A DNA stretch of 64,000 nucleotides. Source: Candidatus Polarisedimenticolia bacterium (GTDB lineage: Bacteria > Acidobacteriota > Polarisedimenticolia > JACPZX01 > DASXTC01). Location of the stretch: NCBI GenBank assembly GCA_035281445.1, contig DATEEA010000030.1, positions 2,332 through 66,331 on the forward strand. Reading direction: 5' to 3'. The position numbers and the translations under genes were made by a program. The notes beneath the pieces are model-generated. The model was given only the letters and a program-made list of their open reading frames with translations, was not told the origin of the DNA and made no database searches. This document shows, piece by piece, positions 1 through 53,012 of this stretch; the first letter of the stretch is position 1; each line of letters begins with the position of its first letter.

Positions 1-2024
1 AGGCTCGTTGTCGTCGCCGCGGCTTCAAGCCCTGCGTCATCGTCTGCGTCCATTGCAGCGATATCATCGGCAGAGCGAAGGAGCGCCGCGATCTCCTCCA
101 GGTGTCCTTCCTTCTGCGTAATGACAGCATCGAGGGGGCCGTAGTCGAGTGTCAGCGTAACGATTTGTCCCAAACTCAAGCCCGCTGCCTGGAGCGTGGT
201 CGCGTGCTCGGTTTCCAGCTCCGTAAGGCTCGCCACCTCGCGGGCAATGGCCTGCCGGAGTTGCCGTAGCTGCTCTACGGTGGTGCTGGTTTCGACCTGC
301 TCGATTTCACGCTGCGCGATCTGCTCGGACAGCTCGGCGATCTTTCGCGTGAGATCTTCGACCTGCGTGGTTTCCGCAGACGGCCCGGCCGTCTCCGCTT
401 CGGGATTCGGCTTTTCCTCCGGGCAGGTCTTGCCGTGCGCCTCGATATCCTCTTTCTTCAGCCTGAGCTTCTCTTCGAGTTCCTTGCGGTAGTCCTCGGT
501 GAGTTTCTTCTCGATGGCGACGACCTTCGCATTGGCCTGGTGAAGCTCCTGCTTCTTCTCGGCGATGTCCTTCTCGGCCTGCTGGGTCCGATACTTGATT
601 AGGTCGTCGAGATCAGACTTTCCGTGCTGGTCCTGCGGCTTAACATATCGGAAGATCACTTCGTTGAGTGTCGCCCGGAACTCGTCGTCCGCGATATTCG
701 CGCAAATCCGCTCCAGGTACTTTTGCGGCAGGTATTCGACCTTCTCGGGCAGATGCGTCGCGGTCTGCTCGTCAAGCGTTTTCTTATCAGGCTCGCCTTG
801 ATGCCAGTTCAGTGTAGCCTCGAAATGTTTCGCACATCCGGCCTTGAGGAATTTCTCCTTATTCAGAAACGAGAACAGCTCTTCGGGCCTTCCGCCCGCA
901 AGGCCCTTGGATATCTGGTTGTGGCTGTTGCCGAGCAGTCCGATTACATCCGTGACCGCGCTTTTCCCGCTGCCCTTGTTGCCGATGACCGCGACAAGCT
1001 CTTTGCCGAGGGCTATCCTCTCGTCGCAGAACCAGGTGCCGTGCTGTTCCTTGCGGTATCCGGCAATGCAGTCGAGTTGCAGTGATGCGATGTAGCGCGT
1101 CCCGTTCTGCCTGACGCGGCGCTCGGCCTCCGGCTCGGCTCCGATATGAACGCGGTTGGCCGGCTCGAAGACGATCTGCTTCAGACCTTCGTAGGTGAGA
1201 TCGGCCTTGATCCAGGTCGGCTCCAGCACGACGCCGTCCGCAGGAGTCGTGAAAACTTGCCCGAGTTTCGCATCGAGATCGGCAAGGGAGTGAGCATCGC
1301 AGCCAGAAAGCACGGGCTTGGGTTCCGTGTACTCTGACTTATCTTGGGCCCGCGAGCGGCTGAGGAACCACTCGACATTCTCGGCATTGCCGAAGAATGC
1401 GTCGCTGAACTTATCCAGCTCATCCGATAGCTCAGCCTTCCTCTTGACGCCCGGCTTCGCGCGAATGCCGTCATTGTTCGCCGCGGTGACAATCAGGACG
1501 TGGTCAAGGAGGTCGGCATCCCGTCCGTAGGTCTCGGTGAGAGCCTTCCGGATATACTCTCGAGTCGTCGTAGCCGATTCGAAATCGGCAGTCCGCGTGA
1601 GTTCGCTGGCCTTGACATCACGGTCCAAACGATCGGTTCTAGTGAGATTGAGAGCGCTGAGAAAGAACTTGATGCGGCTATCGCAATCGGGCTGAAAGGG
1701 GTTGAAGAGTAGGTGAACGTTGACCTCCTCTTCCGCCTTGTTAACGACGTAGTTGGTCCGCAACTCGACGTTGGGAAAGAACACCTTTGGGGAATCTCGA
1801 TACCGCTTCCGGTATTCGGCAACGGCAGTGAAGTAGCATTCGGCGGAGAAATAATCCGTGATGCCGAACGCCTGCACATCAGACTCATGCAGCCTTCGGC
1901 AATACGCATCCCACAATTCGGCGCCGTCCGGCGCGCGGAACTGGTTGTTGAGTTTCGTTCCAGGCGCGTGGAGGTGGAGATCCCACTTTCTCCACTCTGA
2001 GCCCCTAGGTGAGTTCGCAATCAT
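1..2024 (-). CDS. Large PHP-domain + P-loop (SMC/RecF/OLD-like) ATPase with coiled coil. The C-terminus runs off the window start. Ppl-like candidate defence protein.
   Basis: Own translation of the minus strand, in a frame absent from the track because there is no in-window stop. It starts MIANSPRGSEWRKWDLHLHAPGT, giving the PHP HxH motif. Further on is SGCDAHS, a PHP Asp-His motif. About 345 aa in comes LVAVIGNKGSGKSAVTD, a Walker A. That is followed by more than 250 aa of Glu/Lys/Leu-rich heptad-like sequence (coiled coil). The ATG is at ~2024 and the frame closes upstream at a TAG. GC is lower than the window background. Confidence 0.7.
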   Translation of the reverse strand, partial: MIANSPRGSEWRKWDLHLHAPGTKLNNQFRAPDGAELWDAYCRRLHESDVQAFGITDYFSAECYFTAVAEYRKRYRDSPKVFFPNVELRTNYVVNKAEEEVNVHLLFNPFQPDCDSRIKFFLSALNLTRTDRLDRDVKASELTRTADFESATTTREYIRKALTETYGRDADLLDHVLIVTAANNDGIRAKPGVKRKAELSDELDKFSDAFFGNAENVEWFLSRSRAQDKSEYTEPKPVLSGCDAHSLADLDAKLGQVFTTPADGVVLEPTWIKADLTYEGLKQIVFEPANRVHIGAEPEAERRVRQNGTRYIASLQLDCIAGYRKEQHGTWFCDERIALGKELVAVIGNKGSGKSAVTDVIGLLGNSHNQISKGLAGGRPEELFSFLNKEKFLKAGCAKHFEATLNWHQGEPDKKTLDEQTATHLPEKVEYLPQKYLERICANIADDEFRATLNEVIFRYVKPQDQHGKSDLDDLIKYRTQQAEKDIAEKKQELHQANAKVVAIEKKLTEDYRKELEEKLRLKKEDIEAHGKTCPEEKPNPEAETAGPSAETTQVEDLTRKIAELSEQIAQREIEQVETSTTVEQLRQLRQAIAREVASLTELETEHATTLQAAGLSLGQIVTLTLDYGPLDAVITQKEGHLEEIAALLRSADDIAAMDADDDAGLEAAATTTS

Positions 2025-2325
2025 CGCATTTCGCTTCCAGGCTGGATCCCATGACGCGTATTCCACGATTCTCTGTATCCGCCCGATGACCGCGGATCTT
2101 GACGGCTCCCCTGCAGTGCCGCTTGGCGGGGAAACACCAGGTGTTTGACAGGGGCTCACATGGCCCGCCGCAGGATTCTACCATTGTTCCGGAGGCACCG
2201 GACCGCTGAGACGTTGTGTCGCCGCCGTGCAGTGGGGCCTGAGGACTCTTCTCCGGCGTAAGATTCTCATGGAGGAGGGAAAACTGTGGTGGGTCGCGGA
2301 GTAGTAGCCGGAAACCTTTCCGAAG

Positions 2326-2353
2326 GAAAAAGCCAAGGCATGATGCCTTGGCT
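2326..2353 (-). terminator. Rho-independent terminator between the 123-aa hypothetical gene and the PHP-ATPase gene.
   Basis: The inverted repeat agccaaggcat-g-atgccttggct is perfect (11 bp stem). On the minus-strand transcript it is followed by a UUUUU run, the complement of aaaaa at 2326-2330. Confidence 0.6.
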
Positions 2354-2367
2354 CTTGATGTGGCCGC

Positions 2368-2739
2368 TCAGGAAGTGCGAAACGCTTCCTGGAAGCCGCG
2401 GTTGATTCGGGACAGGAGGTCGAAGGCGCTGCGCACGCTGCGGGTCCGGTGGGTCGCGTAGTGCGTCGCTGTGTTGTAGGCGTCGAAGATGTTCGAGAGC
2501 CCCTTCCTGGTCAGATGGTCAGTGAGTGTCCGGGATGCGAGGCTCGGAAGCCCTTCCAGCACGGGCTGAAGCGGGTGCCAGGTGCAGGACCGCTGCGTCC
2601 ATGTCCGATAGAGTTCGAGGATCGCATCGAAGCCCGTGAGGTACGACGCGAGCTGCTCGGCGACGCTCTCGATCGGGATCTCGCCGGCGTGGACGGACAT
2701 GAACCCGCCGGCGAACACGCCGCCTCCACCCACCGCCAA
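2368..2739 (-). CDS. Hypothetical protein (123 aa) immediately upstream of the PHP-ATPase gene.
   Basis: A track ORF of 123 aa with an alternative internal start MSVHAGE. It contains no Arg-rich shadow-frame signature and I recognise no family. The terminator hairpin sits directly downstream. Confidence 0.45.
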   Translation of the reverse strand: MAVGGGGVFAGGFMSVHAGEIPIESVAEQLASYLTGFDAILELYRTWTQRSCTWHPLQPVLEGLPSLASRTLTDHLTRKGLSNIFDAYNTATHYATHRTRSVRSAFDLLSRINRGFQEAFRTS

Positions 2740-2999
2740 GTTCGTGCAGACGAACCGGAACGCTCCGATGTGGACCGTCTAGTCCAATCGCCCAAATCGT
2801 CTCAAAAAGGCCAGCGGTTATCAAGAGTATCCCACCTCACATCCCTATCCCGAGACATGGCCTAGCCAGTCAACTTTGCCGTCGAGTCGTCGAGCTCCTC
2901 CGCTAGAATCCGAAGTTGGTCGTAAACCTCTCTCAGATGCGCGATTTCGGTTGCATTCATAGTCACATAAACCTCTAGCGCCCTTACCGGAAAATACAT

Positions 3000-3360
3000 C
3001 AACAAGAGCTACAGATGATGAGATGGCAAGGCTTGCGGCCGACGTTGATCGGCTGATCCATAAGCATCACCCCGATCAACAAGGACCTCATCGACGAGCG
3101 GCTGGTCCAACTCAAGAACCGCCGCAGGGCGCTTGAGGCACGCCGCGATGAACTGACCTGGCACGCTGAGCGCAAGGTGGACCTCGAGGCCGCCACGCGC
3201 GCCGCGTTGGCCTACTTGACGCGGTTCCGGGGGGGCCTAGGCCACGGGACCTTCCTTGAGCAAGAGGAGCTGATCGCCGCCTTCGTCGATGGAATCCATC
3301 CTCCACCCGGTCAACAAGACTGGGACGCTGAAGCTCCGCTTGCGGCGTCTTTATGGTAAC
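3000..3360 (+). pseudogene. Frameshifted remnant ORF, possibly a recombinase or transposase C-terminal fragment.
   Basis: Two adjacent frames read ...DEMARLAADVDRLIHK and then ...INKDLIDERLVQLKNRRRALEARRDELTWHAERKVDLEAATRAALAYLTRFRGGLGHGTFLEQEELIAAFVDGIHPPPGQQDWDAEAPLAASLW*. The second, ~95-aa, frame has no start codon. It has coiled-coil character reminiscent of recombinase C-terminal regions and lies in an AT-richer block. Confidence 0.3.
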
Positions 3361-3450
3361 CGGAGCATGCGCCGGCTGGGGATCCCGTACGACGAGGGCA
3401 AGTGCCCCGCATGAAAGCCGCGCAAGGTGCGGTCTTGGTCGGGCGGACCC

Positions 3451-3479
3451 TTGACACTCCCCGTGGGCTGCGGTATAAA
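3451..3479 (+). promoter_or_regulatory. Sigma70-like promoter upstream of hup.
   Basis: TTGACA at 3451-3456 and TATAAA at 3474-3479 are separated by a 17-nt spacer. A GGGGAGG ribosome-binding site precedes the ATG at 3555. Confidence 0.5.
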
Positions 3480-3554
3480 GCGGCGCCTTGTTTCGCTGCA
3501 CCGTCCGGAACGTTTCCGTTTGGCATCGGCACAGTCCTCGGGGAGGTAAGCTGG

Positions 3555-3827
3555 ATGAACAAAGCGGACCTGATCGTCAAGTTGTCGAAGGACGCCGGCA
3601 TCACGAAGGAGAAGGCGAACCTGGCCATCGACTCGCTGGTCGACGGCGTCACCAAGGGGCTCAAGAAGGGCACGCGCGTGACCCTGGTCGGCTTCGGCAC
3701 CTTCTACAGCGCCAAGCGCAAGGCGCGCGTCGGCCGCAACCCGCAGACCGGAGAGACCATCCAGATCAAGGCCAAGCGGGTCGCCCGCTTCAAGCCGGGC
3801 AAGGAGCTGGAGTCGTCCATCCGCTAG
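3555..3827 (+). CDS. hup: HU/IHF-family nucleoid-associated DNA-binding protein.
   Basis: MNKADLIVKLSKDAGITKEKANLAIDSLVDGVTKGLKKGTRVTLVGFGTFYSAKRKARVGRNPQTGETIQIKAKRVARFKPGKELESSI is a canonical HU sequence and length. The internal ATG at 3555 with a ribosome-binding site is preferred over the track start at 3402. Confidence 0.9.
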   Translation: MNKADLIVKLSKDAGITKEKANLAIDSLVDGVTKGLKKGTRVTLVGFGTFYSAKRKARVGRNPQTGETIQIKAKRVARFKPGKELESSIR

Positions 3828-3848
3828 GCTCGAGCTGCCCCGCTCCGA

Positions 3849-3878
3849 CCAGGGTGGTGTCGGAGGATGCCACCCTGG
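3849..3878 (+). terminator. Stem-loop downstream of hup.
   Basis: ccagggtgg-(12 nt)-ccaccctgg forms a perfect 9-bp stem. There is no clear U-tract. Confidence 0.35.
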
Positions 3879-4061
3879 CCGAGCCCCCCGACGGGCCGGA
3901 ATCCGCCGCCGGTGCTGCACAGTCAGAGCAACCGCTCCGTGCCCTCGCCGGGATACGGCTTGACGCTGGCCCCCCCTCGCGGTATCTGTAGGCAACCTCT
4001 ATTTATAGCCGTCTGGGTGCGTTCGGGCGCTGTCTCACCTTCCCTTTGGAGGCTCCCCAAA

Positions 4062-4718
4062 ATGACGATCGCAAGTCGCTGGATCATCGGCTTGCGCGGC
4101 CCGGGGCTGGCCCTGGCCCTGCTGGCGCTGGCGGTTCCTGCCCATGCCACCACGTTGAAAAGGATGGACTTGTCCGAGCTGGTGCGCGGTGCGGACCGGG
4201 TGGTCCATGCCCGGGCGGCCGGCACCAGGGTCTACTGGGACCCCAGCGGCACCCAGATCTACACCGACACCCGCTTCGAGGTGGTGGAGGAGGCCAAGGG
4301 GCGCGGGCCCCGCACCCTCACCCTCACCACCCTGGGCGGGAGGATGGGAGAGGTGGTCATGTCGGTGGAGGGGACGCCGGCCTTCGAGCAGGGGAGCGAG
4401 GCGGTGCTGTTCACCGCCGCGGCGCCGGACGGAAGGCGCCATCTGGTGGGCTTTTCGCAGGGGGTGATGCGCGTCATCGAGGATTCGCGGACCGGGGACC
4501 GGTTCGCGGTCAGCGAGACCCCGGCGGGGGTCACGGTCATGGAGCGGACCGGGACCGGGCTGGCTCCCGTCAGGCCGCGCCGGCAGAGGGCGAGCCTGCC
4601 GCAGCTTCTCGATGAGATCCGCCGCATCGCGCAGGGCGAGCCCGCCGGCCCCAGGCTGCTGTCCCGGCCGCAGAAGGCCGCCGGGGCCGCGCCCGCTCCG
4701 CAGGAGGGGAGGCCATGA
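4062..4718 (+). CDS. Secreted hypothetical protein (~218 aa) co-transcribed with the downstream metalloprotease.
   Basis: There is an internal ATG with a GGAGG ribosome-binding site. The signal peptide is MTIASRWIIGLRGPGLALALLALAVPAHA. The stop overlaps the start of the next gene (ATGA). Confidence 0.55.
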   Translation: MTIASRWIIGLRGPGLALALLALAVPAHATTLKRMDLSELVRGADRVVHARAAGTRVYWDPSGTQIYTDTRFEVVEEAKGRGPRTLTLTTLGGRMGEVVMSVEGTPAFEQGSEAVLFTAAAPDGRRHLVGFSQGVMRVIEDSRTGDRFAVSETPAGVTVMERTGTGLAPVRPRRQRASLPQLLDEIRRIAQGEPAGPRLLSRPQKAAGAAPAPQEGRP

Positions 4719-7330
4719 GACTCCATCATCTGGCGGCGCTGGCCGGCCTGGCCGGCGCCCTGCTCCTGGCGGGCGGGCAGCCCCAGGCCACGGGCAACCT
4801 GGAGGTCATCACCCAAAGCGGCACCGCCATCGGCAACCGGGTGTGGCACGCCAACTCCATCCCTATCGTCTGGCAGTACAACGACCCCACCACCGTCGGC
4901 ACGTGCAGCTACAGCTCCACCAACGCCCCCGCGATGACGCTGCTGCCCGCCCTGCAGGCGGCCTACGACGCCTGGGAGGTGGACCCCGACTCGGCTCTGG
5001 ACTTCACCTACGGGGGGACCACCGCCACGCGCAACGTCGGAAACGACGGGGTCAACGTGGTGACCTTCTGCGACTCGGTCGTGCTGCAGTCCAACCAGGG
5101 GTTTCTCGCCAGCACCCCGTCCACGGCCCTCGCCTCCCAGATCACCGTGACGGCGGGGGGCGGCTGTCCCGCCGGGCAGGGGATCCTCGACGCCAACGGG
5201 CCGCAGCCTCCGGCCGGGTTCTGCTTCCCGGTGGGGACCTACCCGGCCGGCACGACCATCGACGCCGACATCCGGTTCAACACCTTCGGGACGTTCGAGC
5301 AGGCCAACTTCTCCACCAACAACACGATCGGCACCTCCGACGTGCAGGCGGTCATGACCCATGAAATCGGTCACTTCTTCGGCCTGTCGCACGATCCGAT
5401 CCCGCAGGCGGTCATGTTCCCGTTCGTGGACGACGAGCCGGCCAGCGACGGGATGGGGCAGAGGGTGCTCAAGCGGTCGGACCTGAGCACGGCGGGGCAC
5501 TTCTACCCCGCCGCCAGCTTCGGCGTCAACTTCGGCAGCATCACCGGGTTCATCTCGCTCGACGGGGTGGACGCCGACGGGGTCCACGTCGCGGCCATCG
5601 ACCCCTCCACCATGCTGGGGGTCTCCGGGCGCTTCGCCATCTCCCGGTTCGAGGACAGCCTGGCCCTGGGCCCGGACGGGCCCGACTTCGCGGCCAACGG
5701 CGCCGGATTCTACAGGATCGACGGGCTCCCCCCTGGCGACTACTACGTGTATGTCGAGTACTTCGACAACTCCGACTTCATCTCGGGGCGGCTGGTCAAC
5801 CGGTACAACACGACGGTGGGGAACTCCAACGTCTCCAACGGCAATTCGGGATCGACCGGCCAGGTCGGGAGCTGGCTGGGGTTCATACCGGCCCTGGCCG
5901 AGTTCCACAACGCCGGCGACTCGGGGCACGGCGGCAACGGCATCGATCCGGGGACGGCGCTGGACAACTCCGACGTGGCCACGCTGGTCCCGGTCACGGC
6001 GGGGACGGTGACCTCCAACGTCAACATCGCCATCAACATCGAGCCGGTCAACGGCCAGACGGCCGTCAACCGCCAGAACCCGACCACCCGCAACACGCTC
6101 CCCAACGATCTGCTCGGGACCAACGACATCATCACCGCCTTCCTGCTGGAGGAGGGAGACGACGACTGGTGGGCGATCCGCTTCCCGGCTTCCGCCCTGC
6201 CGCCGGTTCCCTTCAACGTGGCCGAGGGGCAGTGGATGAAGGCGGGGCTGAGCACCATGCCCATGGTCACCCGGCTGGCCTTCGCCGACCCCAACAGCCC
6301 CTCGAATCCGGCGCTCAACGACCCGGTGGTGGCCTCCGCCGGGCGGGTGCTGACCGGCGGCCCCGGCGGCACGCTGCCCGCGGGGGACTTCATCGACGTC
6401 CGGGACCAGTGGAACGTGACCGTGACGCAGGCCCAGGATGTCTGGATCCTCATCAACCAGCCGGAGTCCGACCCCAACATCACCTTCCTGACCGAGGGGT
6501 TCTTCGCCCTGGTGGCCCAGACCCAGGGGGGCGCCGCCCGCGTGAACAACACGCGCCTGACCATCAACGGTGGGGCGAGCTGGTCCACGTTCACCCAGGG
6601 GGATGTCTTCTACGACCTGATCCTGGAGGCCGACCCGCCGGTCATGATCACCGGCGCCTCTCCCGCCTCGATGAACGCCTTGCAGACGGCAGACGTGGAC
6701 ATCAACGGCCTGGGCTTCCAGATGGGGGCGGCGGTGGACTTCGGCCCGTTCGTGACGGTCAACAACGTCACTTTCATGAGCCCCCAGCAGCTCCGGGCCA
6801 ACATCACCGTGGCCGCGGTGCCGGGCACGGCCCCGGTGGCGGTGAACGTGAAGGTCACCAACCCGGACGTGGTCTTCCCCAACGTGGCCAGGGTCTTCAG
6901 CCTCGTCCCGGTCCAGGACACCGACCTCGACGGCACCCCGGACACCGAGGACTGCGCGCCGGGCGACTCTTCCATCCAGCACCCGGCGACGGAGGTGGCC
7001 AACCTGCTGGTGGCCGACCTGGGCGGCTCGACACAGCTCACCTGGGACAGCCAGGACATGGCCAGCGGCACGGCGACCGTGTATGACGTCGTGACCGGCA
7101 TCGCCGGCGACCTCAGGACCACACCGGGCTACGGGATGGCGCAGTGCGGGGCGGACAACCACGCCGACTCGCCGTTTGTGGACATGAACCCGGATCCGCC
7201 CCTGGACGGCATCCGCTACTGGCTGGTGAGGGCGTTCAACGGCTGCACGGCGGGCTCGGGGACGTACGGCGACAGCAACGTGGCGCCCGACCCCAGAGAC
7301 GCGCTCGACGCGGGAGTCCCCTGCCCTTAG
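4715..7330 (+). CDS. Secreted zinc metalloprotease of the metzincin/matrixin type (871 aa) with a large beta-rich C-terminal extension.
   Basis: There is an N-terminal signal peptide. HEIGHFFGLSHD matches the HExxHxxGxxH zinc-binding motif and AVMFP is a Met-turn. The C-terminus has a TSP3-like DTDLDGTPDTEDC motif and a Cys-rich tail. Confidence 0.85.
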   Translation: MRLHHLAALAGLAGALLLAGGQPQATGNLEVITQSGTAIGNRVWHANSIPIVWQYNDPTTVGTCSYSSTNAPAMTLLPALQAAYDAWEVDPDSALDFTYGGTTATRNVGNDGVNVVTFCDSVVLQSNQGFLASTPSTALASQITVTAGGGCPAGQGILDANGPQPPAGFCFPVGTYPAGTTIDADIRFNTFGTFEQANFSTNNTIGTSDVQAVMTHEIGHFFGLSHDPIPQAVMFPFVDDEPASDGMGQRVLKRSDLSTAGHFYPAASFGVNFGSITGFISLDGVDADGVHVAAIDPSTMLGVSGRFAISRFEDSLALGPDGPDFAANGAGFYRIDGLPPGDYYVYVEYFDNSDFISGRLVNRYNTTVGNSNVSNGNSGSTGQVGSWLGFIPALAEFHNAGDSGHGGNGIDPGTALDNSDVATLVPVTAGTVTSNVNIAINIEPVNGQTAVNRQNPTTRNTLPNDLLGTNDIITAFLLEEGDDDWWAIRFPASALPPVPFNVAEGQWMKAGLSTMPMVTRLAFADPNSPSNPALNDPVVASAGRVLTGGPGGTLPAGDFIDVRDQWNVTVTQAQDVWILINQPESDPNITFLTEGFFALVAQTQGGAARVNNTRLTINGGASWSTFTQGDVFYDLILEADPPVMITGASPASMNALQTADVDINGLGFQMGAAVDFGPFVTVNNVTFMSPQQLRANITVAAVPGTAPVAVNVKVTNPDVVFPNVARVFSLVPVQDTDLDGTPDTEDCAPGDSSIQHPATEVANLLVADLGGSTQLTWDSQDMASGTATVYDVVTGIAGDLRTTPGYGMAQCGADNHADSPFVDMNPDPPLDGIRYWLVRAFNGCTAGSGTYGDSNVAPDPRDALDAGVPCP

Positions 7331-7340
7331 GCAAGGGGCG

Positions 7341-7853
7341 CTACTCCAGGACGATCAGGGTCTCGCCGGTCTCCACGGTCCGGCCCGGGGAGACGAGCAC
7401 CTGCCTGACCACCGCGTCGCGGGGGGCGGCGATCTCGTTTTCCATCTTCATCGCCTCCACCACCACCAGTCCCTGGCGGGCGGCGACGCGGGCTCCGGGC
7501 TCGACCAGCACGCGCAGCACCCTGCCGGGCATGACGGCGGCGACACGCAGGCGCCCGCCCGCCTCGGCCGCGCGGCGCGAGGGCCCCGCCCCCGGCTCCT
7601 CGGGGACCACCTCGAAGCTCATCCCGCCCACCCGCACGCGCACCGCCCCGCGGGCGTGCTGGACGATCGCCTCATGCGACATCCCCTCGGTGAGGATGGA
7701 GAAGACCCGGTCCTGGGGCTCGGTCACGCTCAGGGCGTAGCCTCGGCCGTCCACCACCGCCCTGACCCCTCCCCGGCCGTCGTGCTCGAGCTCCACCTGG
7801 TGCAGGCTCTCCCCCACGCGGGCGCTGAAGCGGGTGGTGCTGCGCGCGGTCAT
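7341..7853 (-). CDS. Biotin carboxyl carrier / BT-hook + biotinyl domain protein (C-terminal portion of an acyl-CoA carboxylase alpha subunit).
   Basis: The tail of track frame 7341..8672 is read from MTARSTTRF. It carries the biotinyl-lysine motif EAMKMENEI. The start ATG overlaps the stop of the upstream biotin carboxylase (ATGA). Confidence 0.7.
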   Translation of the reverse strand: MTARSTTRFSARVGESLHQVELEHDGRGGVRAVVDGRGYALSVTEPQDRVFSILTEGMSHEAIVQHARGAVRVRVGGMSFEVVPEEPGAGPSRRAAEAGGRLRVAAVMPGRVLRVLVEPGARVAARQGLVVVEAMKMENEIAAPRDAVVRQVLVSPGRTVETGETLIVLE

Positions 7854-9352
7854 CGCCCGGGGCCTTCCATCTGCCGGCGCCGGCCGGCCGCCCGCCAGGC
7901 GCTCGGCCCGCCGCGGTGATCGCCCCCCGCCGCCGGCGTCCTCCCCTGGGCCAGCGCCGCGGCGATGAGGGCGAGGTCCTTCAGGAGCTCCGCGCGCCCG
8001 CCGGCCAGCGGCGGGCGGCCGTTCATCTCCTCCACGAAGCGGGTGTGCAGCTCCCCGCGCACGAAGCGCTCGTCGCGCAGCGCCCTCTGGTGGAAGGAGA
8101 GCGTCGTGGGGACCCCGACCACCATGTACTCGTCGAGCGCCCTGAGCATCCTGGCGATGGCCTCGGCGCGGGTCTCCCCCCAGGCGACCAGCTTGGAGAT
8201 CAGGGGGTCGTAGTGGATCGGCAGGGCGTACCCTTCGTACACCCCGCTGTCGTCGCGGATCCCGGGGCCTCCGGGGACCCTCAGCCGCTCGATGCGTCCG
8301 GGAGCGGGGAGGAACCCGCGGTCGGGGTCCTCGGCGTAGATGCGGCACTCGATGGCCGACCCGCGCAGGGCGACGTCGTCCTGGCTCAGGCCGCTGGCCT
8401 CGCCGGCGGCCACCCGGAGCTGGGCCTTGACCAGGTCCACGCCCGTGACCATCTCGGTGACCGGGTGCTCGACTTGCAGCCGCGTGTTCATCTCCATGAA
8501 GTAGAAGCGTCCTTCGGCATCCACGAGGAACTCCACCGTCCCGGCCCCGCGGTAGCCCACGGCGTCGGCGGCGCGCACCGCCGCCTCTCCTAGCTGCTGC
8601 CTCCGGGCGGCGTCCACCATGGGAGAGGGGCTCTCCTCGATGAGCTTCTGGTGGCGGCGCTGGATGGAGCACTCGCGCTCTCCCAGGTGGATGGCCCCGC
8701 GCGCGTCGGCCAGCACCTGCACCTCGATGTGGCGGCCGCGCTCGATGTAGCGCTCCACGTACACGGCGGGGTTGCCGAACGCCGCCCCTGCCTCGGAGGC
8801 GGCCTGGGCGAGGGCCGACTCGGCCTCCCCCTCGGACCGGACCACGCGCATCCCGCGGCCGCCCCCTCCGGCCGCCGCCTTGATCAGCACCGGGTAGCCG
8901 ATGGCCGCCGCCTGGCTTCGCAGCTCGGCCGCCGAGGCCACCGGGCCCTCGGTCCCCGGGACCAGAGGGACCCCCGCCTCCTTCATGAGCTTGCGCGCCC
9001 TGACCTTGTCCCCCATGGCGGCGATGGCCTCCGCCGGCGGGCCGATGAAGACCAGGCCGGCCGCGGCGCAGGCCCGGGCGAAGGCGGCGTTCTCGGAAAG
9101 GAAGCCGTAGCCGGGGTGCACGGCCTCGGCCCCCGAGCGGCCGGCGGCGGCCACGATGGCCTCGATGGAGAGATAGGACCTGGACGCCTCGGCCGGCCCG
9201 ATGAGATAGGCCTCGTCGGCGTAGCGCACGTGCAGGGCGTCGCGGTCGGCCTCGGAGAAGACGGCCACGCTGCGCACGCCGGCCTCCCGGCAGGCCCGTA
9301 TCACCCGGACGGCGATCTCCCCCCGGTTGGCGATGAGGATCTTGTGGAACAT
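7850..9352 (-). CDS. accC: Biotin carboxylase (acetyl/propionyl-CoA carboxylase BC domain) with a ~45-aa C-terminal extension.
   Basis: MFHKILIANRGEIAVRVIRACREAG... is a canonical ATP-grasp biotin carboxylase. Confidence 0.9.
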   Translation of the reverse strand: MFHKILIANRGEIAVRVIRACREAGVRSVAVFSEADRDALHVRYADEAYLIGPAEASRSYLSIEAIVAAAGRSGAEAVHPGYGFLSENAAFARACAAAGLVFIGPPAEAIAAMGDKVRARKLMKEAGVPLVPGTEGPVASAAELRSQAAAIGYPVLIKAAAGGGGRGMRVVRSEGEAESALAQAASEAGAAFGNPAVYVERYIERGRHIEVQVLADARGAIHLGERECSIQRRHQKLIEESPSPMVDAARRQQLGEAAVRAADAVGYRGAGTVEFLVDAEGRFYFMEMNTRLQVEHPVTEMVTGVDLVKAQLRVAAGEASGLSQDDVALRGSAIECRIYAEDPDRGFLPAPGRIERLRVPGGPGIRDDSGVYEGYALPIHYDPLISKLVAWGETRAEAIARMLRALDEYMVVGVPTTLSFHQRALRDERFVRGELHTRFVEEMNGRPPLAGGRAELLKDLALIAAALAQGRTPAAGGDHRGGPSAWRAAGRRRQMEGPGR

Positions 9353-9372
9353 GGGGGGAGATGATACCTGAT

Positions 9373-10059
9373 TCAGCCGATGAACTTGTACCCGACCCTG
9401 TGCACGGTCACGATGAACTGCGGCTCGTCGGCCTTCCCCTCGATCTTCTTGCGCAGCTTGGCCACGTGCATGTCCACGGTGCGGGTGAAGGGGATCTGCT
9501 CGTACCCCCAGACGGCGTACAGGAGCTGCTCGCGGGCCACCACCTGCCCGCGGTGCTCGATGAGGTACTTGAGGAGCTGCAGCTCTCTCTGGGAGAGATC
9601 CACCGGGCGGCCCCCCTTGCGCGCCTCGTGCTTCTTGAAGTTCACGCTGACGTCGCCGAAGCTGTACGCCTCGAGGGCGGCCGCCCCCGCACCGCCGTTG
9701 GCCCTCCGCATCACCGCCTCGGCCCGGGCCATCAGCTCCATGAAGCTGAAGGGCTTGGTGACGTAGTCGTCGGCGCCCATCTTGAGCCCCAGGACCTTAT
9801 CGATCTCCTGGCCGCGGGCGGTCAGCATGATGATGGGGGTGGCCACACCGTCGGCCCGCAGCTTCCTGCAGACATCCAGGCCGCTCATCCGCGGGAGCAT
9901 CACGTCCAGGATGATCAGGTCCGGGGGCTCGGCCAGCGCCTGCCTCAGCCCGGCCTCCCCGTCGCGGGCCAGCGCCGGGGCGAACCCTTCGTACTCGAAG
10001 CCGTCTCGCAGCGCGATGGCCATGGACTCGTCGTCCTCCACGATCAGCACCCTAGGCAC
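9373..10059 (-). CDS. OmpR-family two-component response regulator.
   Basis: [26 protein letters not shown]...ILDVMLP is the receiver domain. The C-terminal winged helix contains VHRVGYKF. Confidence 0.9.
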
Positions 10060-11653
10060 CTGCTGTCTCCTCCACCGGCAGCCGTATGGCGAACCGGCTC
10101 CCCCTCCCCGGCTCGCTGTCCACGGTGACCGCCCCTTTGTGCGCCTGCACGATGTGGTTGACGATGGAGAGCCCCAGCCCGCTCCCCTTCACGTCGTGCA
10201 CCAGGCCCGTGCTCACCCTGTGGAACCGCTCGAAGATCTTGGTCTGCTCGTCGCGGGAGATCCCGATCCCCTGGTCCTTGACCGAGACCATGACGTAGCC
10301 GTTGTCCTGTCCCACCGCCACGTCGATGGCCCGGGCGGAGCCGGAGTACTTGACGGCGTTGTCCAGCAGGTTGCTGACCGCCTGGCCGATGGCGTCGGCG
10401 TCGAGCCACACCTTCGGCAGCGGGCGCTCAGGCTGGTCGAACCGTATCTCGAAGCCGCTGTGGCGCAGGCGCACCTCGAAGGTCTTCAGCGTCTCGCAGA
10501 CCACGTCGGTCAGATCGGCGCTCTCGAACCGGTAGGTCTTGCGCCCCGACTCGATCTTGGCGAAGTCCAGGATGTTGTTCACCAGCCCCGTCAGGCGGCG
10601 GCTCTCGGTCTCGATGTACTCGCCGTACTCGCTCACCTTGGCGGGGTCGGTGACCCGGCCCAGGCGCAGGAACTCTCCGAACACACGGATGCTGGCCAGC
10701 GGCGTTCGCAGCTCGTGCGACACGTTGGAGACGAAGTCGTTCTTCATCTGGGAGAGCTTCATCTCCCTCGACGCCGTCCTCAGGGCCAGCGCGACCCCTC
10801 CCAGCAGCACGACGGCGATGGCGGCCGACAGCCCCATGTTCAGCACGAAGTTGGCCTGGGCCCAGTCCTTCGGGTTCATGTCCTTGCTGGACAGCCCGAT
10901 GCGGTAGTCCCTGAAGACGAAGGCCATGGCGCGCTCCGCCTCGAACTTCTCCTCCAGCTTGTCCCGCTTGGCCCCCCGCACCACGACCCTCAGGTTCTTC
11001 TGGTCGGCCTCGGAGAAGAAGTACGGCATGGACTTGTCGATGACCTTGGGCAGGAGCCTGTCGCGGAAGAACCGGTGGTCGAGGATGAGCCCGGCCAGTC
11101 CCACCACGCGCGACTCGGCGTCCAGGACGGGGTGGATGATCAGCCGGTTCTCCGGGTCGCGCTCGTCCACCGACAGCGCCTCGGTCTCCACGACGTCGCG
11201 CTTCTCGCTGAGCATCCACCAGGGGGCGGCGGCCACGTAGATGGCGCGCTGCTCGGCGGCGCTGGCGGGGGGCTCCATCGCCGGGATGGAGGGCTCGTAC
11301 ACCAGGGCCTTCCCGTGGTCCTCTCGCACGAAGCTCAGCACGAAGAAGCGCTTCACCCCCAGGGGGCCCTTCTTCATGAACTTGTCGAAGTGGTAGGCCG
11401 CCTTGTCCAGGCGGTTCTCGATGAACATCCACGCGGGGAGGTTCAGGGCGGCCGTGGCCAGCTCCTTGTAGTGGTACTCGGACTTGGTGGCCACCGCCTC
11501 GAGGTAGTTCTTCAGGGTCGCCTCGTGGGCGATGGCGGACTTGGTCTGCAGCTCCACCAGCCAGCGGTACTGCAGGACGAGCATCACCGTCAGCGGCACG
11601 AGCACCGCCAGAAACCCCGCCCACAGCACGTGGCGCTTCAGGAAGGCCTTCAT
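10052..11653 (-). CDS. Sensor histidine kinase.
   Basis: An N-terminal transmembrane segment is followed by a periplasmic region and a second transmembrane segment. The H-box is [16 protein letters not shown]. The HATPase region contains LDNAVKYS and GSGLGLSIV. Confidence 0.9.
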
Positions 11654-11839
11654 AGGCCGGGAATATACGCCCCCCGGAGTCTTCCGTTGGCTTCCGGCAG
11701 CGCCTCTTTACAGTCCGTTGACAACGGAGACACCTTTTTACCCTCATTTTAGGCCGTTTACTCCCCTGCCCCGTAAGATCCGCAGCGAAACGAGGGTTCG
11801 TCGCCGGCCGGACGGGCCCCCCTTGACGGGAGGTGCTGG

Positions 11840-12316
11840 ATGAAGCGTCGGGTCGCGTTGGCAGTTGCGGCCGTGCTGGCGATCGCGCCGGCGGCGATGG
11901 CGGGTGGAGACCACTACAAGTGCACCAAGGCCACCCAGGCCTGCCTGGACATGATGGCCCACGACATGAAGAACAGCGGGTGGGTGGGCATCGAGCTGGA
12001 CAAGTCCGAGGACGGCAAGATGCTGGTGAAGAAGGTCGTCTCCGGCAGCCCGGCGGAGTCGGCCGGCTTCAAGGAAGGGGACGTCCTGGTCGCCCTGCAA
12101 GGGCTCAAGTTCGCCGACGAGTCGAACAAGGAGGCCCTCAAGGCGGCCAAGAAGGCGATGGCCCCGGGCAAGGAGATCACCTACACGGTCCTGCGCGCCG
12201 GCGCGGAGAAGAAGCTGACCGCAACCCTGGCGCCGGTTCCTCAGGAAGTCCTGGCCCAGTGGATCGGCAACCATATGCTGGCGCACGCCGACAACACGGC
12301 GATCGCCCGCAACTGA
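11840..12316 (+). CDS. Secreted PDZ-domain protein.
   Basis: The signal peptide is MKRRVALAVAAVLAIAPAAMA. The PDZ core is VKKVVSGSPAESAGFKEGDVLVAL. Confidence 0.7.
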   Translation: MKRRVALAVAAVLAIAPAAMAGGDHYKCTKATQACLDMMAHDMKNSGWVGIELDKSEDGKMLVKKVVSGSPAESAGFKEGDVLVALQGLKFADESNKEALKAAKKAMAPGKEITYTVLRAGAEKKLTATLAPVPQEVLAQWIGNHMLAHADNTAIARN

Positions 12317-12324
12317 CGAAAACT

Positions 12325-12353
12325 GGAGGCGCCCTCGCCGGGAGGGCGCCTCC
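12325..12353 (+). terminator. Strong stem-loop after the PDZ gene.
   Basis: ggaggcgccctc-gccgg-gagggcgcctcc forms a perfect 12-bp stem with a 5-nt loop. No U-tract follows. Confidence 0.45.
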
Positions 12354-12375
12354 CCCAGCCAAGGACTCGAAACCC

Positions 12376-13689
12376 ATGACCCTCGCGACGGCATCCCTGG
12401 CGGCGGCCCTGGCCTTGGCCGCGGCCGAAGCTCCGCCCGCCCGGGCCTCCCTGGAGGAGAGCCTCCGCCGGGCCGAGGGGGCCATGCGCGAGGGGGCCTT
12501 TGCCGAGGCGGCCGACGCCTGGATGGAGGCGGCCCGCATGGTCCCGAACCACCCCGGGGTGCTGATCAGGGCAGGGGAGGCGCTGGCCCTGTCGGGCCGT
12601 CCTGCCGAGGGGCTGGAGTACCTCCTGCGGGCCGGCAGGCAGGGAGGAACCGGACATCTGGAGCGGATCGAGACGTCGTTCGCTTCCGCCGGCAGGGCCG
12701 ACCTCACCGCCGCCCTCGACCTGCTGCGGGCCAACGCCGGGGCGCTGGCGACCGGGACCGTGGCCTTCTCCCTGGCGGAGAAGGACCTCATACCGGAAAG
12801 CGTCGCCTACGACCCCCGGGAGAAGGTCTTCTACGTGGGGAGCCTGCACAAGAGGAAGATCGTGCGGGTGGACGCCTCCGGGGACGCCCGCGACTTCGTG
12901 CCCCAGGCGGGCTCGGGGCTGTGGAGCGTGCTTGGGATAAAGGTGGACCAGGAGCGCCGCGAGATCTGGGCCAACGCCTGCAACCTGGTCGACCCGGACC
13001 CGCCGATGGTGCCGGACGAGGCGGCGACCAGGGGCCGGACGGCTGTGTTCCGCTTCGATCTCGCCACCGGAAAGGTGGTGGCCCGCTACGAGAGCGGCAG
13101 CAAGGAAAGCCCCCTCTGCTTCAACGACCTGACCCCCGCCACCGAGGGGGCCTGGTACCTCTCCTCGGGGGCCGACGGCATCTTCCGGGTCGACCCGGGC
13201 AAGGGGACGCTGGAGCGCTTCGCCGCCTACGACGGGATGGTCAACGGCATCGCCGCCTCGGACGACGGGCGGCTGCTCTTTCTGGCCGATCACCGGCGCG
13301 GGGTGCAGGTGATGGATGTGGCCAGCCGGCAGGTGCGGGCGCTGCGTCTCCCCCCGGACGCCTCGCTGGCCGGGGTGGACGGCCTCTACGTGCGCGGCCG
13401 CACGGTGGTGGCGGTGCAGAACGCCCTGACCCGCGGCCTGGCCCGGGTCGTCTCGGCCGAGATGGACCCCGGGCTTGAGTCGGTCCTGTGCCTGAGGGTG
13501 CTCGACCGCAACCGCCCCGAGTTCGACGTCCCGACCACGGGGGTCCTGGTGGGCGGCGACCTCTACTACGTCGCCTCCAGCCAGCTCGATTCGTTCGACC
13601 ACGGCACTATCTGGCCGCTGGATCGCCTCAGGCAGAGCGTGGTGATCAGGACCCCTTACGCGCCGCGGTGCGGCGAGCAGGGAGCGTGA
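12376..13689 (+). CDS. Secreted TPR-like + beta-propeller (SMP-30/NHL-like) hypothetical protein.
   Basis: An internal ATG precedes MTLATASLAAALALAAA, a signal peptide. The track's longer N-terminus, 11833..13689, was rejected because it overlaps the PDZ gene. Confidence 0.55.
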   Translation: MTLATASLAAALALAAAEAPPARASLEESLRRAEGAMREGAFAEAADAWMEAARMVPNHPGVLIRAGEALALSGRPAEGLEYLLRAGRQGGTGHLERIETSFASAGRADLTAALDLLRANAGALATGTVAFSLAEKDLIPESVAYDPREKVFYVGSLHKRKIVRVDASGDARDFVPQAGSGLWSVLGIKVDQERREIWANACNLVDPDPPMVPDEAATRGRTAVFRFDLATGKVVARYESGSKESPLCFNDLTPATEGAWYLSSGADGIFRVDPGKGTLERFAAYDGMVNGIAASDDGRLLFLADHRRGVQVMDVASRQVRALRLPPDASLAGVDGLYVRGRTVVAVQNALTRGLARVVSAEMDPGLESVLCLRVLDRNRPEFDVPTTGVLVGGDLYYVASSQLDSFDHGTIWPLDRLRQSVVIRTPYAPRCGEQGA

Positions 13690-13691
13690 CC

Positions 13692-14012
13692 ATGCCCCGA
13701 GAGTCGGCGCCTTCCAGGCTCAAGATCGGGGCCTATCTGGCGGCCGGAGCGCTGGCCACCGGGGTGATCGGCCTGGGGAGCGCACCCTCCTCGCAGGACG
13801 GGCCGCGTGGCGTCGTGGTCCCGGCCGCGATGGCGGCGGCCGGCATCCTGGCCCCGGCGCAGGCCGCCGCGGCCGAGGAGGCGCCCCGCGCCCTCGTCCG
13901 CACCCGCGCCCCGGAAGCCGCGCAGCCGGGCCAGGAAGACGGCGTGCAGGGCGTGCAGGAGGCCGTGGCCCCGCGGCGGTGCGAGACACGGGTGAAGTCG
14001 AAGCGAGCTTGA
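13692..14012 (+). CDS. Small Ala-rich hypothetical protein.
   Basis: The ATG lies 3 nt after the previous stop. The sequence is low complexity and the call is weak. Confidence 0.25.
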   Translation: MPRESAPSRLKIGAYLAAGALATGVIGLGSAPSSQDGPRGVVVPAAMAAAGILAPAQAAAAEEAPRALVRTRAPEAAQPGQEDGVQGVQEAVAPRRCETRVKSKRA

Positions 14013-51462: not shown

Positions 51463-51621
51463 CGCACCGCGCCCGTGGCGGCCCGGGACGCCTGCTGGCA
51501 CTCTTCAAGGCCGGCGGCCCTTCCGGCGGGCGCCGACCTCGACGGCCGACGGCTCGACCACTTCCAGCAGGGCCACCACGTCCTGCCAGATATTATGGCA
51601 AGTTAGCGGCCATGCTTAGCG

Positions 51622-52898: not shown

Positions 52899-53012
52899 CC
52901 GCGCCAGCGCGCCTTAGCCGGACCCGGCGCTGCCTCGACTGGATGCGGCGGGCCGACAGCGTGTAGGATCCTCCCTTCGCATCACCACGTCGTCGCCAGA
53001 AGGGGGGATCCG

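What the first reader, a model, noticed from the sequence alone, without database searches (positions are those of the whole stretch)
1..3400. Lower-GC island at the window edge carrying a PHP-phosphoesterase + coiled-coil ATPase (Ppl-like) gene, a small partner ORF and a recombinase-like remnant
The first ~3.4 kb differs from the otherwise two-thirds-GC chromosome: hand counts of 60-nt samples give about 52-65% in the big gene and about 48% in the 2760-2880 spacer. It contains no housekeeping genes, and its genes are on the opposite strand to hup, which abuts it. One side carries a frameshifted coiled-coil remnant with recombinase or transposase flavour. This is the signature of an integrated accessory or defence islet. 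I consider it the best candidate in the window for an unusual biological system, while noting that the big protein resembles a described single-gene defence architecture (Ppl).
Basis: partly seen in the sequence, partly recalled or inferred. Interest (0 to 1): 0.65.

Follow-up and report, generated by a model that had tools for sequence, protein, structure and literature searches.

The report
Decayed mobile island carrying TrlF nuclease-ATPase
The low-GC stretch at the window edge is the worn-out right end of a mobile element that inserted into a regulator gene next to hup and carries one intact, horizontally acquired gene of the known TrlF family (a PHP nuclease fused to an SMC-like ATPase, a cousin of the anti-phage protein Ppl), so it is real but ordinary.

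Summary
Window 1-3400 has 59.4% GC against 68.6% for the rest, and it is the lowest 3.4-kb stretch in the window.

The big minus-strand gene is cut by the window edge. The full 1041-aa protein, read from the source contig, is a full-length member of NCBIfam TrlF (625 bits, cut-off 350). It is not Ppl (73.6 bits, cut-off 1000).

Structure models show an N-terminal PHP fold followed by a Rad50/SMC-like ABC ATPase with a coiled coil. Relatives at 84-87% identity occur in four other phyla. 28 of 78 related loci have restriction-modification genes within 5 kb.

The "small partner ORF" is a truncated DUF932 fragment, not a partner.

The "recombinase-like remnant" is real. It is the tail of a large serine recombinase with two frameshifts.

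Related metagenome contigs reveal the integration site. Three have an intact sigma-54 activator gene directly upstream of hup, which is the empty site. One has the recombinase reading in frame into the activator's last ~24 codons.

The right island boundary is at about 3340. The left boundary lies beyond the contig end, past an IS1-family transposase.

A defence function is inferred, not shown. Verdict: a new member of a known kind, of modest interest.

The parts
1..2024 (-). trlF, 5' two-thirds (residues 1-674 of 1041). The gene runs off the window edge and ends 1101 nt further left in the source contig (L001 1230-4355).
   Evidence: NCBIfam NF045780 TrlF_fam_ATP scores 625 bits against a cut-off of 350, covering profile 1-944/944 for the full protein. 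The window part alone scores 325.5 bits. L001 is 100% identical to the window.
1125..2024 (-). PHP (polymerase and histidinol phosphatase) phosphoesterase domain of TrlF, residues ~1-300. Metal-ligand candidates are H17, H19, D57, E87, H104, D243 and H245.
960..983 (-). Walker A motif GNKGSGKS (residues 348-355) of the ABC/SMC-type ATPase head. The signature LSPGERG, Walker B LVIDQPEDNLD and H-loop VTHNPN lie beyond the window edge in L001.
   Evidence: Foldseek of the full model hits the heads and coiled coils of Rad50, Smc, MukB, JetC, RecN and LmuB.
2025..2370 (.). Intergenic region upstream of trlF. It contains a hairpin at 2328-2356 (minus strand: stem, then a T run) just after the DUF932 fragment's stop. 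No conserved small ORF is present.
   Evidence: Inverted repeat I6 (L001 4659-4687). No upstream ORF is shared with close relatives.
2371..2778 (-). Truncated DUF932 gene fragment: the C-terminal part only, closed upstream by a stop codon.
   Evidence: Pfam PF06067 DUF932 scores 24.5 bits (GA 23) and matches profile positions 79-202 of 227 only. It is absent from all other trlF loci and has no hit in the plasmid collection.
2779..2995 (.). Lowest-GC spacer (0.51), with stop codons in all frames and no recognisable gene.
2996..3339 (+). Remnant of the 3' end of a large serine recombinase gene (the coiled-coil tail after the zinc ribbon). It is split over three reading frames (2996-3073, 3063-3302, 3301-3339). 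The catalytic, recombinase and zinc-ribbon parts are missing.
   Evidence: tblastn of P0121 and P0272. It is 70% identical to residues 136-217 of the L092 ORF. That ORF carries a full Zn_ribbon_recom domain (34.2 bits, GA 25.3).
3340..3414 (+). Remnant of the last ~24 codons (Fis-type HTH_8 tail, ...RRLGIPYDEGKCPA*) of a sigma-54-dependent activator gene. This is the integration target and the right boundary (attR side) of the island. About 34 nt spanning the junction are deleted relative to L092.
   Evidence: Alignment A5 with the empty-site contigs L090, L091 and L094 and the occupied L092 and L093. Pfam finds Sigma54_activat + HTH_8 in L090 and L094.
3450..3480 (+). Conserved hup promoter-like elements (CTTGACAC ... 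GTATAAAG). This is core sequence shared by all six aligned lineages.
   Evidence: Invariant columns in alignment A5.
3555..3827 (+). hup (HU, 90 aa), a core gene abutting the island.
   Evidence: Pfam Bac_DNA_binding, 108 bits. It was used to fetch the source contig and the relatives.

Best explanation
Window 1-3340 is the decayed right-hand part of an integrative element. The element used a large serine recombinase to insert into the 3' end (HTH_8-coding tail) of a sigma-54-dependent activator gene lying just upstream of hup. The host is an Acidobacteriota organism, Candidatus Polarisedimenticolia. The recombinase is now a frameshifted stub, a DUF932 gene is truncated, and an IS1-family element sits at the contig end.

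The one intact cargo gene is trlF. It encodes a 1041-aa single polypeptide that joins an N-terminal PHP metal-dependent nuclease/phosphoesterase to a Rad50/SMC-like ABC ATPase. The two halves of the ATPase are separated by a ~320-residue coiled coil.

Inferred mechanism. By analogy with Ppl and with SMC-like defence complexes, the ATPase heads dimerise on nucleotide and the coiled coil and head engage foreign DNA, either ends or unusual structures. The PHP domain then degrades that DNA. Nucleotide binding probably gates the activity. This would make TrlF a stand-alone anti-phage or anti-plasmid nuclease.

Shown: the family identity, the folds, the intact catalytic motifs, the foreign origin, the integration site, and the decay of the flanking genes.

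Inferred: the defence role, the DNA substrate and the regulation.
For: Identity:
- TrlF equivalog at 625 bits against a cut-off of 350, full length.
- Invariant H17, H19, D57, E87, H104 and D243, with H245 nearly invariant.
- SMC/Rad50/JetC/LmuB-like head plus coiled coil.
- Walker A, Walker B, signature and H-loop motifs all intact.

Foreign origin and mobility:
- GC 0.584 and GC3 0.73 against 0.69 and 0.89 for the window's genes.
- Relatives at 84-87% identity in Gammaproteobacteria, Planctomycetota and Verrucomicrobiota, and at 76% in Chlamydiota.
- The clade keeps ~0.50-0.62 GC in hosts whose flanks range from 0.30 to 0.69.
- No flank is shared with any other trlF locus.
- 21 plasmids carry full-length copies.

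Under selection: dN/dS is 0.08-0.14 against relatives.

Defence association:
- Type I R-M genes (HsdM/S in 14 loci, HsdR in 13) or N6_N4 methylase / ResIII genes (11 and 5 loci) lie within 5 kb in 28 of 78 loci, often abutting trlF.
- TrlG-like Schlafen/AlbA_2 proteins occur in 7 loci and Fic in 5.
- Integrases, recombinases or transposases occur in about 20 loci.

Island and integration site:
- L090, L091 and L094 have an intact activator upstream of hup.
- L092 has a recombinase-activator in-frame fusion.
- L093 and the window have decayed versions.

Mechanistic analogy: Ppl is a PHP 3'-5' ssDNA exonuclease plus NTPase, activated by NTP depletion and 3'-OH ends. This comes from the review PMC12904381. 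The primary paper, Xu et al., Mol Cell 2026, is cited in PMC13434339.
Against: No experiment links any TrlF to phage defence.

In the only genetic study, the Photorhabdus TRL operon, the temperature-restriction phenotype mapped to trlG and no mutations were found in trlF (PMC7554251).

The R-M association was scored with my own ORF clustering. Only one Pfam-checked representative was taken per cluster, and no background rate was computed.

Sequence similarity to Ppl is confined to the C-terminal ~135 residues.

I saw no evidence of expression: no consensus promoter lies upstream of trlF.

It is not shown that trlF arrived with the serine-recombinase element rather than later, for example with the IS. 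The left end of the island is missing.
Confidence: 0.72

Rival explanations
1. trlF here is an orphan piece of a multi-gene TRL-type system (trlR-trlF-trlG). On this reading it needs a Schlafen/AlbA_2-HATPase partner (TrlG) that was lost or displaced by the IS1 insertion just downstream. The gene would then be inactive or would do something other than autonomous defence.
For: The family is named after a three-gene operon in which trlG lies directly downstream of trlF (PMC7554251). TrlG-like proteins (SLFN_AlbA_2 + HATPase_c_4) sit next to trlF in 7 of 78 loci, including relatives at 68-71% identity. In the source contig an IS1-family transposase gene occupies the position just downstream of trlF, and the contig ends there.
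Against: None of the closest relatives (76-87% identity: L003, L007, L009-L012, L027, L084) has a TrlG-like gene within 5 kb. About 90% of the sampled loci lack it. The ~45 nt after the stop codon are still shared with L084, so the IS did not cut into the gene's 3' end. dN/dS is ~0.13.
Confidence: 0.15
2. The big protein is a DNA-repair or chromosome-maintenance factor of the SbcC/Rad50/RecN kind, serving the host rather than acting in defence.
For: The fold matches to Rad50, RecN, Smc and MukB heads with coiled coil have E-values of 5e-9 to 1e-6. The top PHP-domain match is a lesion-specific repair endonuclease, EndoQ.
Against: Identity to those proteins is only 9-13%. The composition is foreign. 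Distribution is patchy and crosses phyla at 84-87% identity. Copies are carried on plasmids and sit inside R-M operons. The gene lies in an island that is absent from related genomes. The closest relative, in L084, is itself a pseudogene, so the gene is dispensable.
Confidence: 0.05
3. The whole stretch, trlF included, is dead cargo: a fossil island with no current function.
For: Every other gene in the stretch is broken: the DUF932 fragment, the recombinase with two frameshifts, and a deleted junction. The nearest homologue, in L084, is frameshifted and interrupted. No promoter consensus lies upstream.
Against: trlF is an uninterrupted 1041-codon ORF that aligns end to end with its homologues, and all catalytic motifs are intact. 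An identical copy occurs in a second sample and in an NCBI MAG. The promoter scan covers sigma-70 consensus only, and this organism is an Acidobacteriota.
Confidence: 0.08

Closest known systems
TrlF of the Photorhabdus laumondii temperature-restriction locus (trlR-trlF-trlG); NCBIfam NF045780 'TrlF family AAA-like ATPase'
   Same: The match to the family model is full length and above the curated cut-off (625 against 350 bits). Both are large proteins that have been annotated as 'histidinol phosphatase' plus ATPase. Both are sporadic and horizontally distributed, and both are sometimes plasmid-borne or next to type I R-M genes.
   Different: There is no trlR or trlG neighbour here or in the closest relatives. 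The host is an Acidobacteriota organism. The gene sits in a decayed serine-recombinase island. TrlF itself has no demonstrated function, because the Photorhabdus phenotype mapped to trlG.
Ppl (Gao et al. 2020 single-gene anti-phage protein; NCBIfam NF042955, PADLOC PDLC02208)
   Same: Both are single polypeptides with a PHP nuclease domain plus an NTPase. Ppl is the best-scoring defence model in PADLOC. The two share a distinctive C-terminal ABC lobe.
   Different: The score is 73.6 bits against a cut-off of 1000, and 59.9 bits in PADLOC. Only the last ~135 residues align. It is a separate family, so Ppl's mechanism (3'-OH overhang sensing and relief of NTP inhibition) can be transferred only as a hypothesis.
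SMC-like defence and repair machines: Mre11-Rad50/SbcCD, Lamassu (LmuB + LmuA), Wadjet (JetC + JetD)
   Same: All have an ABC ATPase head interrupted by an antiparallel coiled coil, and all are coupled to a nuclease.
   Different: Here the nuclease is of the PHP type and is fused in cis to the N-terminus. The coiled coil is short (~320 residues in total). No kleisin or accessory subunits are encoded nearby. Identity is 9-13%.
Large-serine-recombinase integrative elements that insert inside genes (for example SPbeta in spsM and skin in sigK of Bacillus; from general knowledge)
   Same: The recombinase gene lies at the element's edge. Integration is inside a coding sequence. The recombinase ORF reads across the junction into the target gene's last codons in L092.
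   Different: The target is the HTH_8 tail of a sigma-54 activator. In the window the recombinase is dead, so the element is fixed. The left junction has not been seen.

Membership tests
TrlF family AAA-like ATPase (NCBIfam NF045780) | Whole-protein score above the curated equivalog cut-off, with end-to-end coverage of the model | tested here: met
   625 bits against a cut-off of 350. Protein residues 7-1034 match profile positions 1-944 of 944.
TrlF family AAA-like ATPase (NCBIfam NF045780) | N-terminal PHP-type phosphoesterase domain with metal-binding His/Asp/Glu residues | tested here: met
TrlF family AAA-like ATPase (NCBIfam NF045780) | ABC/SMC-type ATPase with intact Walker A, signature, Walker B and H-loop motifs | tested here: met
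   GNKGSGKS, LSPGERG, LVIDQPEDNLD and VTHNPN are all present. Pfam AAA_15 and AAA_21 score above GA.
TRL operon (trlR-trlF-trlG) as a system | Adjacent trlG (SLFN_AlbA_2 + HATPase_c_4) and a small trlR regulator | tested here: not met
   Upstream lies a DUF932 fragment. Downstream lies an IS1-family transposase, and then the contig ends. No conserved small upstream ORF exists. Sequence beyond the contig end could not be examined.
Ppl anti-phage protein (NF042955 / PADLOC Ppl) | Score above the family cut-off over the full length | tested here: not met
   73.6 bits against a cut-off of 1000, matching residues 892-1029 only. PADLOC gives 59.9 bits, with the best-scoring stretch in the C-terminal lobe. 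The window-only fragment has no Ppl hit at all.
Ppl anti-phage protein (NF042955 / PADLOC Ppl) | Protection against phage; a PHP exonuclease gated by NTPs and 3'-OH ends | not testable with these tools
   Known for E. coli Ppl from the literature only.
Housekeeping SbcC/Rad50/RecN | Significant sequence membership, conserved presence and conserved synteny in the lineage | tested here: not met
   There are only sub-threshold SMC_N or TIGR SMC hits. The island is absent from three related contigs. The composition is foreign.
Large serine recombinase (remnant at 2996-3339) | Homology to a protein with Resolvase / Recombinase / Zn_ribbon_recom domains | tested here: met
   70% identity to the L092 ORF. 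That ORF has a full Zn_ribbon_recom domain at 34.2 bits against GA 25.3. The window copy itself retains only the post-ribbon tail and has two frameshifts. Direct Pfam, PHROG and hhalign tests on the fragment alone were negative.
DUF932 (PF06067) | Score above the gathering threshold and a complete domain | tested here: inconclusive
   24.5 bits against GA 23, but only profile positions 79-202 of 227 are present and the frame is closed upstream. It is a fragment of a family member, not a complete gene.
Genomic island (integrated mobile element) | Deviant composition, mobility genes, and presence/absence polymorphism at a defined target site | tested here: met
   Composition. Recombinase remnant plus IS1-family transposase. 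Empty sites in L090, L091 and L094 against occupied sites in L092, L093 and the window. The left boundary and direct repeats were not recoverable, because the contig ends.

The most novel reading that the evidence does not exclude
This TrlF clade may be a self-sufficient one-gene immune module, consisting of a cis-fused PHP nuclease and a mini-SMC. It would move between phyla as a bare single-gene cassette. Proteins 84-87% identical occur in Acidobacteriota, Gammaproteobacteria, Planctomycetota and Verrucomicrobiota, with no shared flanking DNA beyond ~45 nt. That pattern implies either an unrecognised way of mobilising single defence genes or repeated capture into unrelated elements. It also implies a DNA-sensing mechanism distinct from that of Ppl.
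Probability: 0.3. Interest if true: 0.5.

Novelty: new member of a known kind. Interest (0 to 1): 0.3.

Why it matters
TrlF is a very large family: about 1400 clusters at 50% identity with E <= 1e-30. It is already named, yet its function has never been tested. This locus adds circumstantial support for a role as a mobile defence-type nuclease-ATPase related to Ppl, and it shows that the gene crosses phylum boundaries. It also documents a serine-recombinase element that targets the 3' end of a sigma-54 activator gene in Polarisedimenticolia-like Acidobacteriota. Neither point overturns current understanding. The value lies in annotation, and in offering a candidate for someone who is characterising Ppl-like or SMC-like defence proteins.

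Tried and rejected
1. Ppl membership: rejected by the NCBIfam and PADLOC scores.

2. Identifying the recombinase fragment directly:
- Pfam, NCBIfam, PHROGs and PADLOC gave nothing.
- tblastn against plasmids gave nothing.
- blastp/phmmer and hhalign against five serine recombinases from trlF loci gave nothing significant.
- It was resolved only through the homologues P0121 and P0272 and the L092 contig.

3. Synteny through the neighbouring M10 peptidase: no relatives in genome contigs or metagenome contigs. Using hup as the query worked.

4. Extending the contig leftwards:
- The ENA contig ends 2331 nt beyond the window.
- The 100% identical NCBI protein P0001 could not be looked up.
- The source MAG is not among the GTDB representatives.

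5. att repeats and tRNA targets: no tRNA or tmRNA, no Rfam hit, and only chance-level repeats.

6. A conserved partner gene: no flanking ORF is shared with other trlF loci.

7. A solved close relative: the PDB sequence search finds only generic ABC lobes, and no Ppl or TrlF structure appears in the PDB fold searches.

8. Looking for the activator's 5' part in the window or contig: none found.


Full report
OBSERVATION

The first 3.4 kb really are compositionally distinct. GC is 0.594 for 1-3400 against 0.686 for the rest, and this is the lowest of all 3.4-kb windows. The 1-kb bins for 1-3000 give 0.58-0.60, while the rest of the window is mostly 0.65-0.74.

The big gene has GC 0.584 and GC3 0.73. 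The 38 other long ORFs of the window average 0.687 and 0.89, giving z = -3.7 and -2.4. The spacer at 2760-2880 is 0.54 rather than 0.48, and the true minimum is 2779-2995 at 0.51.

SOURCE AND EXTENT

The HU protein (window 3555-3827) is encoded on ENA metagenome contig ERZ27257124:k141_2541721, which is 76 kb long. Locus L001 from that contig is 100% identical to window 1-13827 and extends only 2331 nt further left before the contig ends. A second sample (Logan SRR5195118) has a 3.7-kb contig identical to window 2399-6058.

An identical TrlF protein is deposited for a MAG named Candidatus Polarisedimenticolia bacterium, an Acidobacteriota. The 2.3 kb beyond the window complete the big gene (L001 1230-4355, minus strand, 1041 aa). 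They also add an IS1-family transposase gene at L001 53-1009 (NF033558 at 51.8 bits, below its cut-off of 100, plus weak Pfam IS1 and HTH hits).

THE BIG PROTEIN

The full-length protein matches NCBIfam NF045780 "TrlF family AAA-like ATPase" end to end at 625 bits (cut-off 350). It scores only 118.7 against 475 for the sister Spaf_1101 family and 73.6 against 1000 for "anti-phage protein Ppl", and that last match covers only residues 892-1029.

In PADLOC, Ppl is the top model, but at 59.9 bits and with the best-scoring stretch in the C-terminal lobe. The window-truncated protein does not hit Ppl at all. It is therefore a TrlF, a relative of Ppl, and not a Ppl.

Foldseek agrees. The metal-ligand candidates H17, H19, D57, E87, H104 and D243 are invariant in 55 homologues down to ~30% identity, and H245 is nearly invariant at >=90%.

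The full-length model (pLDDT 86.9) has an ABC head split by long helices. Foldseek matches it to the heads and coiled coils of Rad50, Smc, MukB, Wadjet JetC, RecN and Lamassu LmuB, with E from 5e-9 to 1e-5 and 9-13% identity. Walker A, the signature motif, Walker B and the H-loop are all intact. No close relative has a solved structure.

FAMILY BEHAVIOUR

The family is large, with 1397 clusters at 50% identity and E <= 1e-30.

In one genome per species, the closest relatives of this Acidobacteriota protein are:
- 85% identical in Ca. Contendobacter (Gammaproteobacteria)
- 84% in an Anaerohalosphaeraceae MAG (Planctomycetota)
- 84% in an Opitutales MAG (Verrucomicrobiota)
- 87% in another Planctomycetota MAG
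- 81% in Rhodanobacteraceae
- 76% in Waddliaceae (Chlamydiota)

Genes of this clade stay at about 0.50-0.62 GC while their flanks range from 0.30 to 0.69. Pairwise dN/dS is 0.08-0.14. Twenty-one plasmids carry full-length copies annotated as TrlF, and phages carry none.

Nothing flanking the window's gene is shared with any other trlF locus, apart from ~45 nt after the stop codon.

I clustered the ORFs within 5 kb of trlF in 78 loci and checked one representative of each cluster with Pfam. The results were:
- HsdM/HsdS in 14 loci and HsdR in 13, often abutting trlF within a few nucleotides
- N6_N4 methylase in 11 loci and ResIII in 5
- R-M genes of any type in 28 of the 78 loci
- TrlG-like SLFN_AlbA_2 + HATPase_c_4 proteins in 7 loci
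- Fic in 5
- tyrosine integrases in 8, serine recombinases in 5 and rve transposases in 7

No background rate was computed, so the defence-island association is suggestive rather than statistical.

WHAT IS KNOWN ABOUT TrlF AND Ppl

The name TrlF comes from the Photorhabdus laumondii temperature-restriction locus, trlR-trlF-trlG. There, all selected mutations fell in trlG and none in trlF. The locus was also noted to be sporadic, horizontally spread, and associated with type I R-M genes on a Yersinia plasmid (PMC7554251).

In 2024 Ppl was still described as an uncharacterised ATPase + PHP single-gene defence system (PMC11482910). A 2026 review now describes it as an ssDNA 3'-5' exonuclease activated by nucleotide depletion and 3'-OH ends (PMC12904381). 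The primary paper is cited in PMC13434339.

THE OTHER PIECES

The "small partner ORF" (2371-2778, minus strand) matches Pfam DUF932 at 24.5 bits, but only over profile positions 79-202 of 227. Its frame is closed upstream. No other trlF locus has it. It is a gene fragment, not a partner.

The coiled-coil remnant initially had no family hit. Its few homologues are short fragments. One of them, P0272, has a sub-threshold zinc-ribbon recombinase match just N-terminal of the shared part. tblastn shows that the window copy is spread over three frames, at 2996-3073, 3063-3302 and 3301-3339.

INTEGRATION SITE

Using HU as a probe in JGI metagenomes returned relatives with 86-92% identical HU.

In L090, L091 and L094, the gene immediately upstream of hup on the same strand is a sigma-54-dependent activator. 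Its domains are GAF (seen in L090), Sigma54_activat and HTH_8. It ends ...GWNRMRLYRSLRRHGIPYDSGR*.

In L092, an ORF with a full Zn_ribbon_recom domain (34.2 bits, GA 25.3) and the same coiled-coil tail runs in frame into ...GW|NRMRLYRRLKILGIPYDTGKQAD*. This shows that a large-serine-recombinase element integrated in the last ~24 codons of the activator gene, with the crossover near GGGTGGAACC (alignment A5).

L093 and the window carry decayed versions. In the window about 34 nt spanning the junction are deleted, and the activator tail survives as ...RRLGIPYDEGKCPA* at 3340-3414. It is followed by a promoter-like CTTGACAC...GTATAAAG that is conserved in all six lineages, and then by hup.

No 5' part of the activator is present anywhere in the window or the contig end. 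The left boundary lies beyond the contig end, or it has been deleted.

INTERPRETATION

The stretch is the fossilised end of an integrative element. Its only intact gene is a horizontally acquired trlF.

The most likely function is a stand-alone nuclease-ATPase acting on foreign DNA. This rests on the cis-fusion of a PHP nuclease to an SMC-like ATPase, on the kinship with Ppl, and on the R-M and mobile-element neighbourhoods. It remains an inference, because no TrlF has been tested.

There are three rivals. The gene could be an orphan of a TrlG-dependent system, a host repair factor, or dead cargo. All are less likely, for the reasons given under each.

VERDICT

The island interpretation is supported, and is now anchored by empty-site comparisons. 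The Ppl resemblance is correct at the level of architecture, but the family is TrlF. The partner ORF is a pseudogene fragment. This is a new member of a known kind and of modest interest.

Noticed in passing
window 51708-52898 (+), and 51512-51584 (-): There is a second low-GC islet: the kb bin 52001-53000 has GC 0.532, the lowest in the window. It holds a 396-aa ORF with the Fic motif HPFGDGNGR. Directly beside it lies a 73-nt remnant, 82% identical, of the 3' end of the same IS1-family transposase gene that flanks trlF at the contig end. Both foreign single-gene islets therefore adjoin related IS copies. Fic genes also sit next to trlF in 5 of 78 other loci.
   Followed up: partly
L001 53-1009 (+), that is 1322-2278 nt to the left of window position 1: An IS1-family transposase gene (318-aa ORF) lies 220 nt downstream of the trlF stop codon, at the very end of the source contig. 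This probably explains why the assembly breaks there.
   Followed up: partly
L010 506-5031 and L011 1-4526: Two MAG contigs assigned to different phyla share 4526 nt, including trlF, at 99.89% identity. One is Anaerohalosphaeraceae (Planctomycetota) and the other is Opitutales (Verrucomicrobiota). This is either very recent inter-phylum transfer or a binning error.
   Followed up: no
L084 6860-11542: The closest relative of the window's TrlF among species-representative genomes (87% identity, in a Planctomycetota MAG) is a pseudogene. It has several frameshifts and a ~1.5-kb insertion. An intact large serine recombinase gene lies 1 kb downstream.
   Followed up: partly
P0001 (NCBI protein, 992 aa) versus L001 1230-4355: The deposited annotation of the identical MAG protein starts 49 codons too late, at an internal GTG. 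This cuts off the invariant HxH motif of the PHP domain. Homologues align from the upstream ATG at window 2024.
   Followed up: yes
P0121, P0272 versus L092 2-787: Recombinase homologues from other contigs end ...SGW|TAMNTEKTP..., whereas the integrated copy in L092 ends ...TGW|NRMRLYR... (the activator tail). The recombinase's own C-terminus thus appears to be exchanged at the crossover point. The first form may represent attP or a different target.
   Followed up: no
L087 5752-7231 and L089 121-543, 5071-5523: Other short homologues of the recombinase tail (150-153 aa ORFs) lie near a TIR-domain protein gene (L087) and a tyrosine-integrase fragment (L089). Similar scars therefore recur in accessory regions of other soil bacteria.
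   Followed up: no
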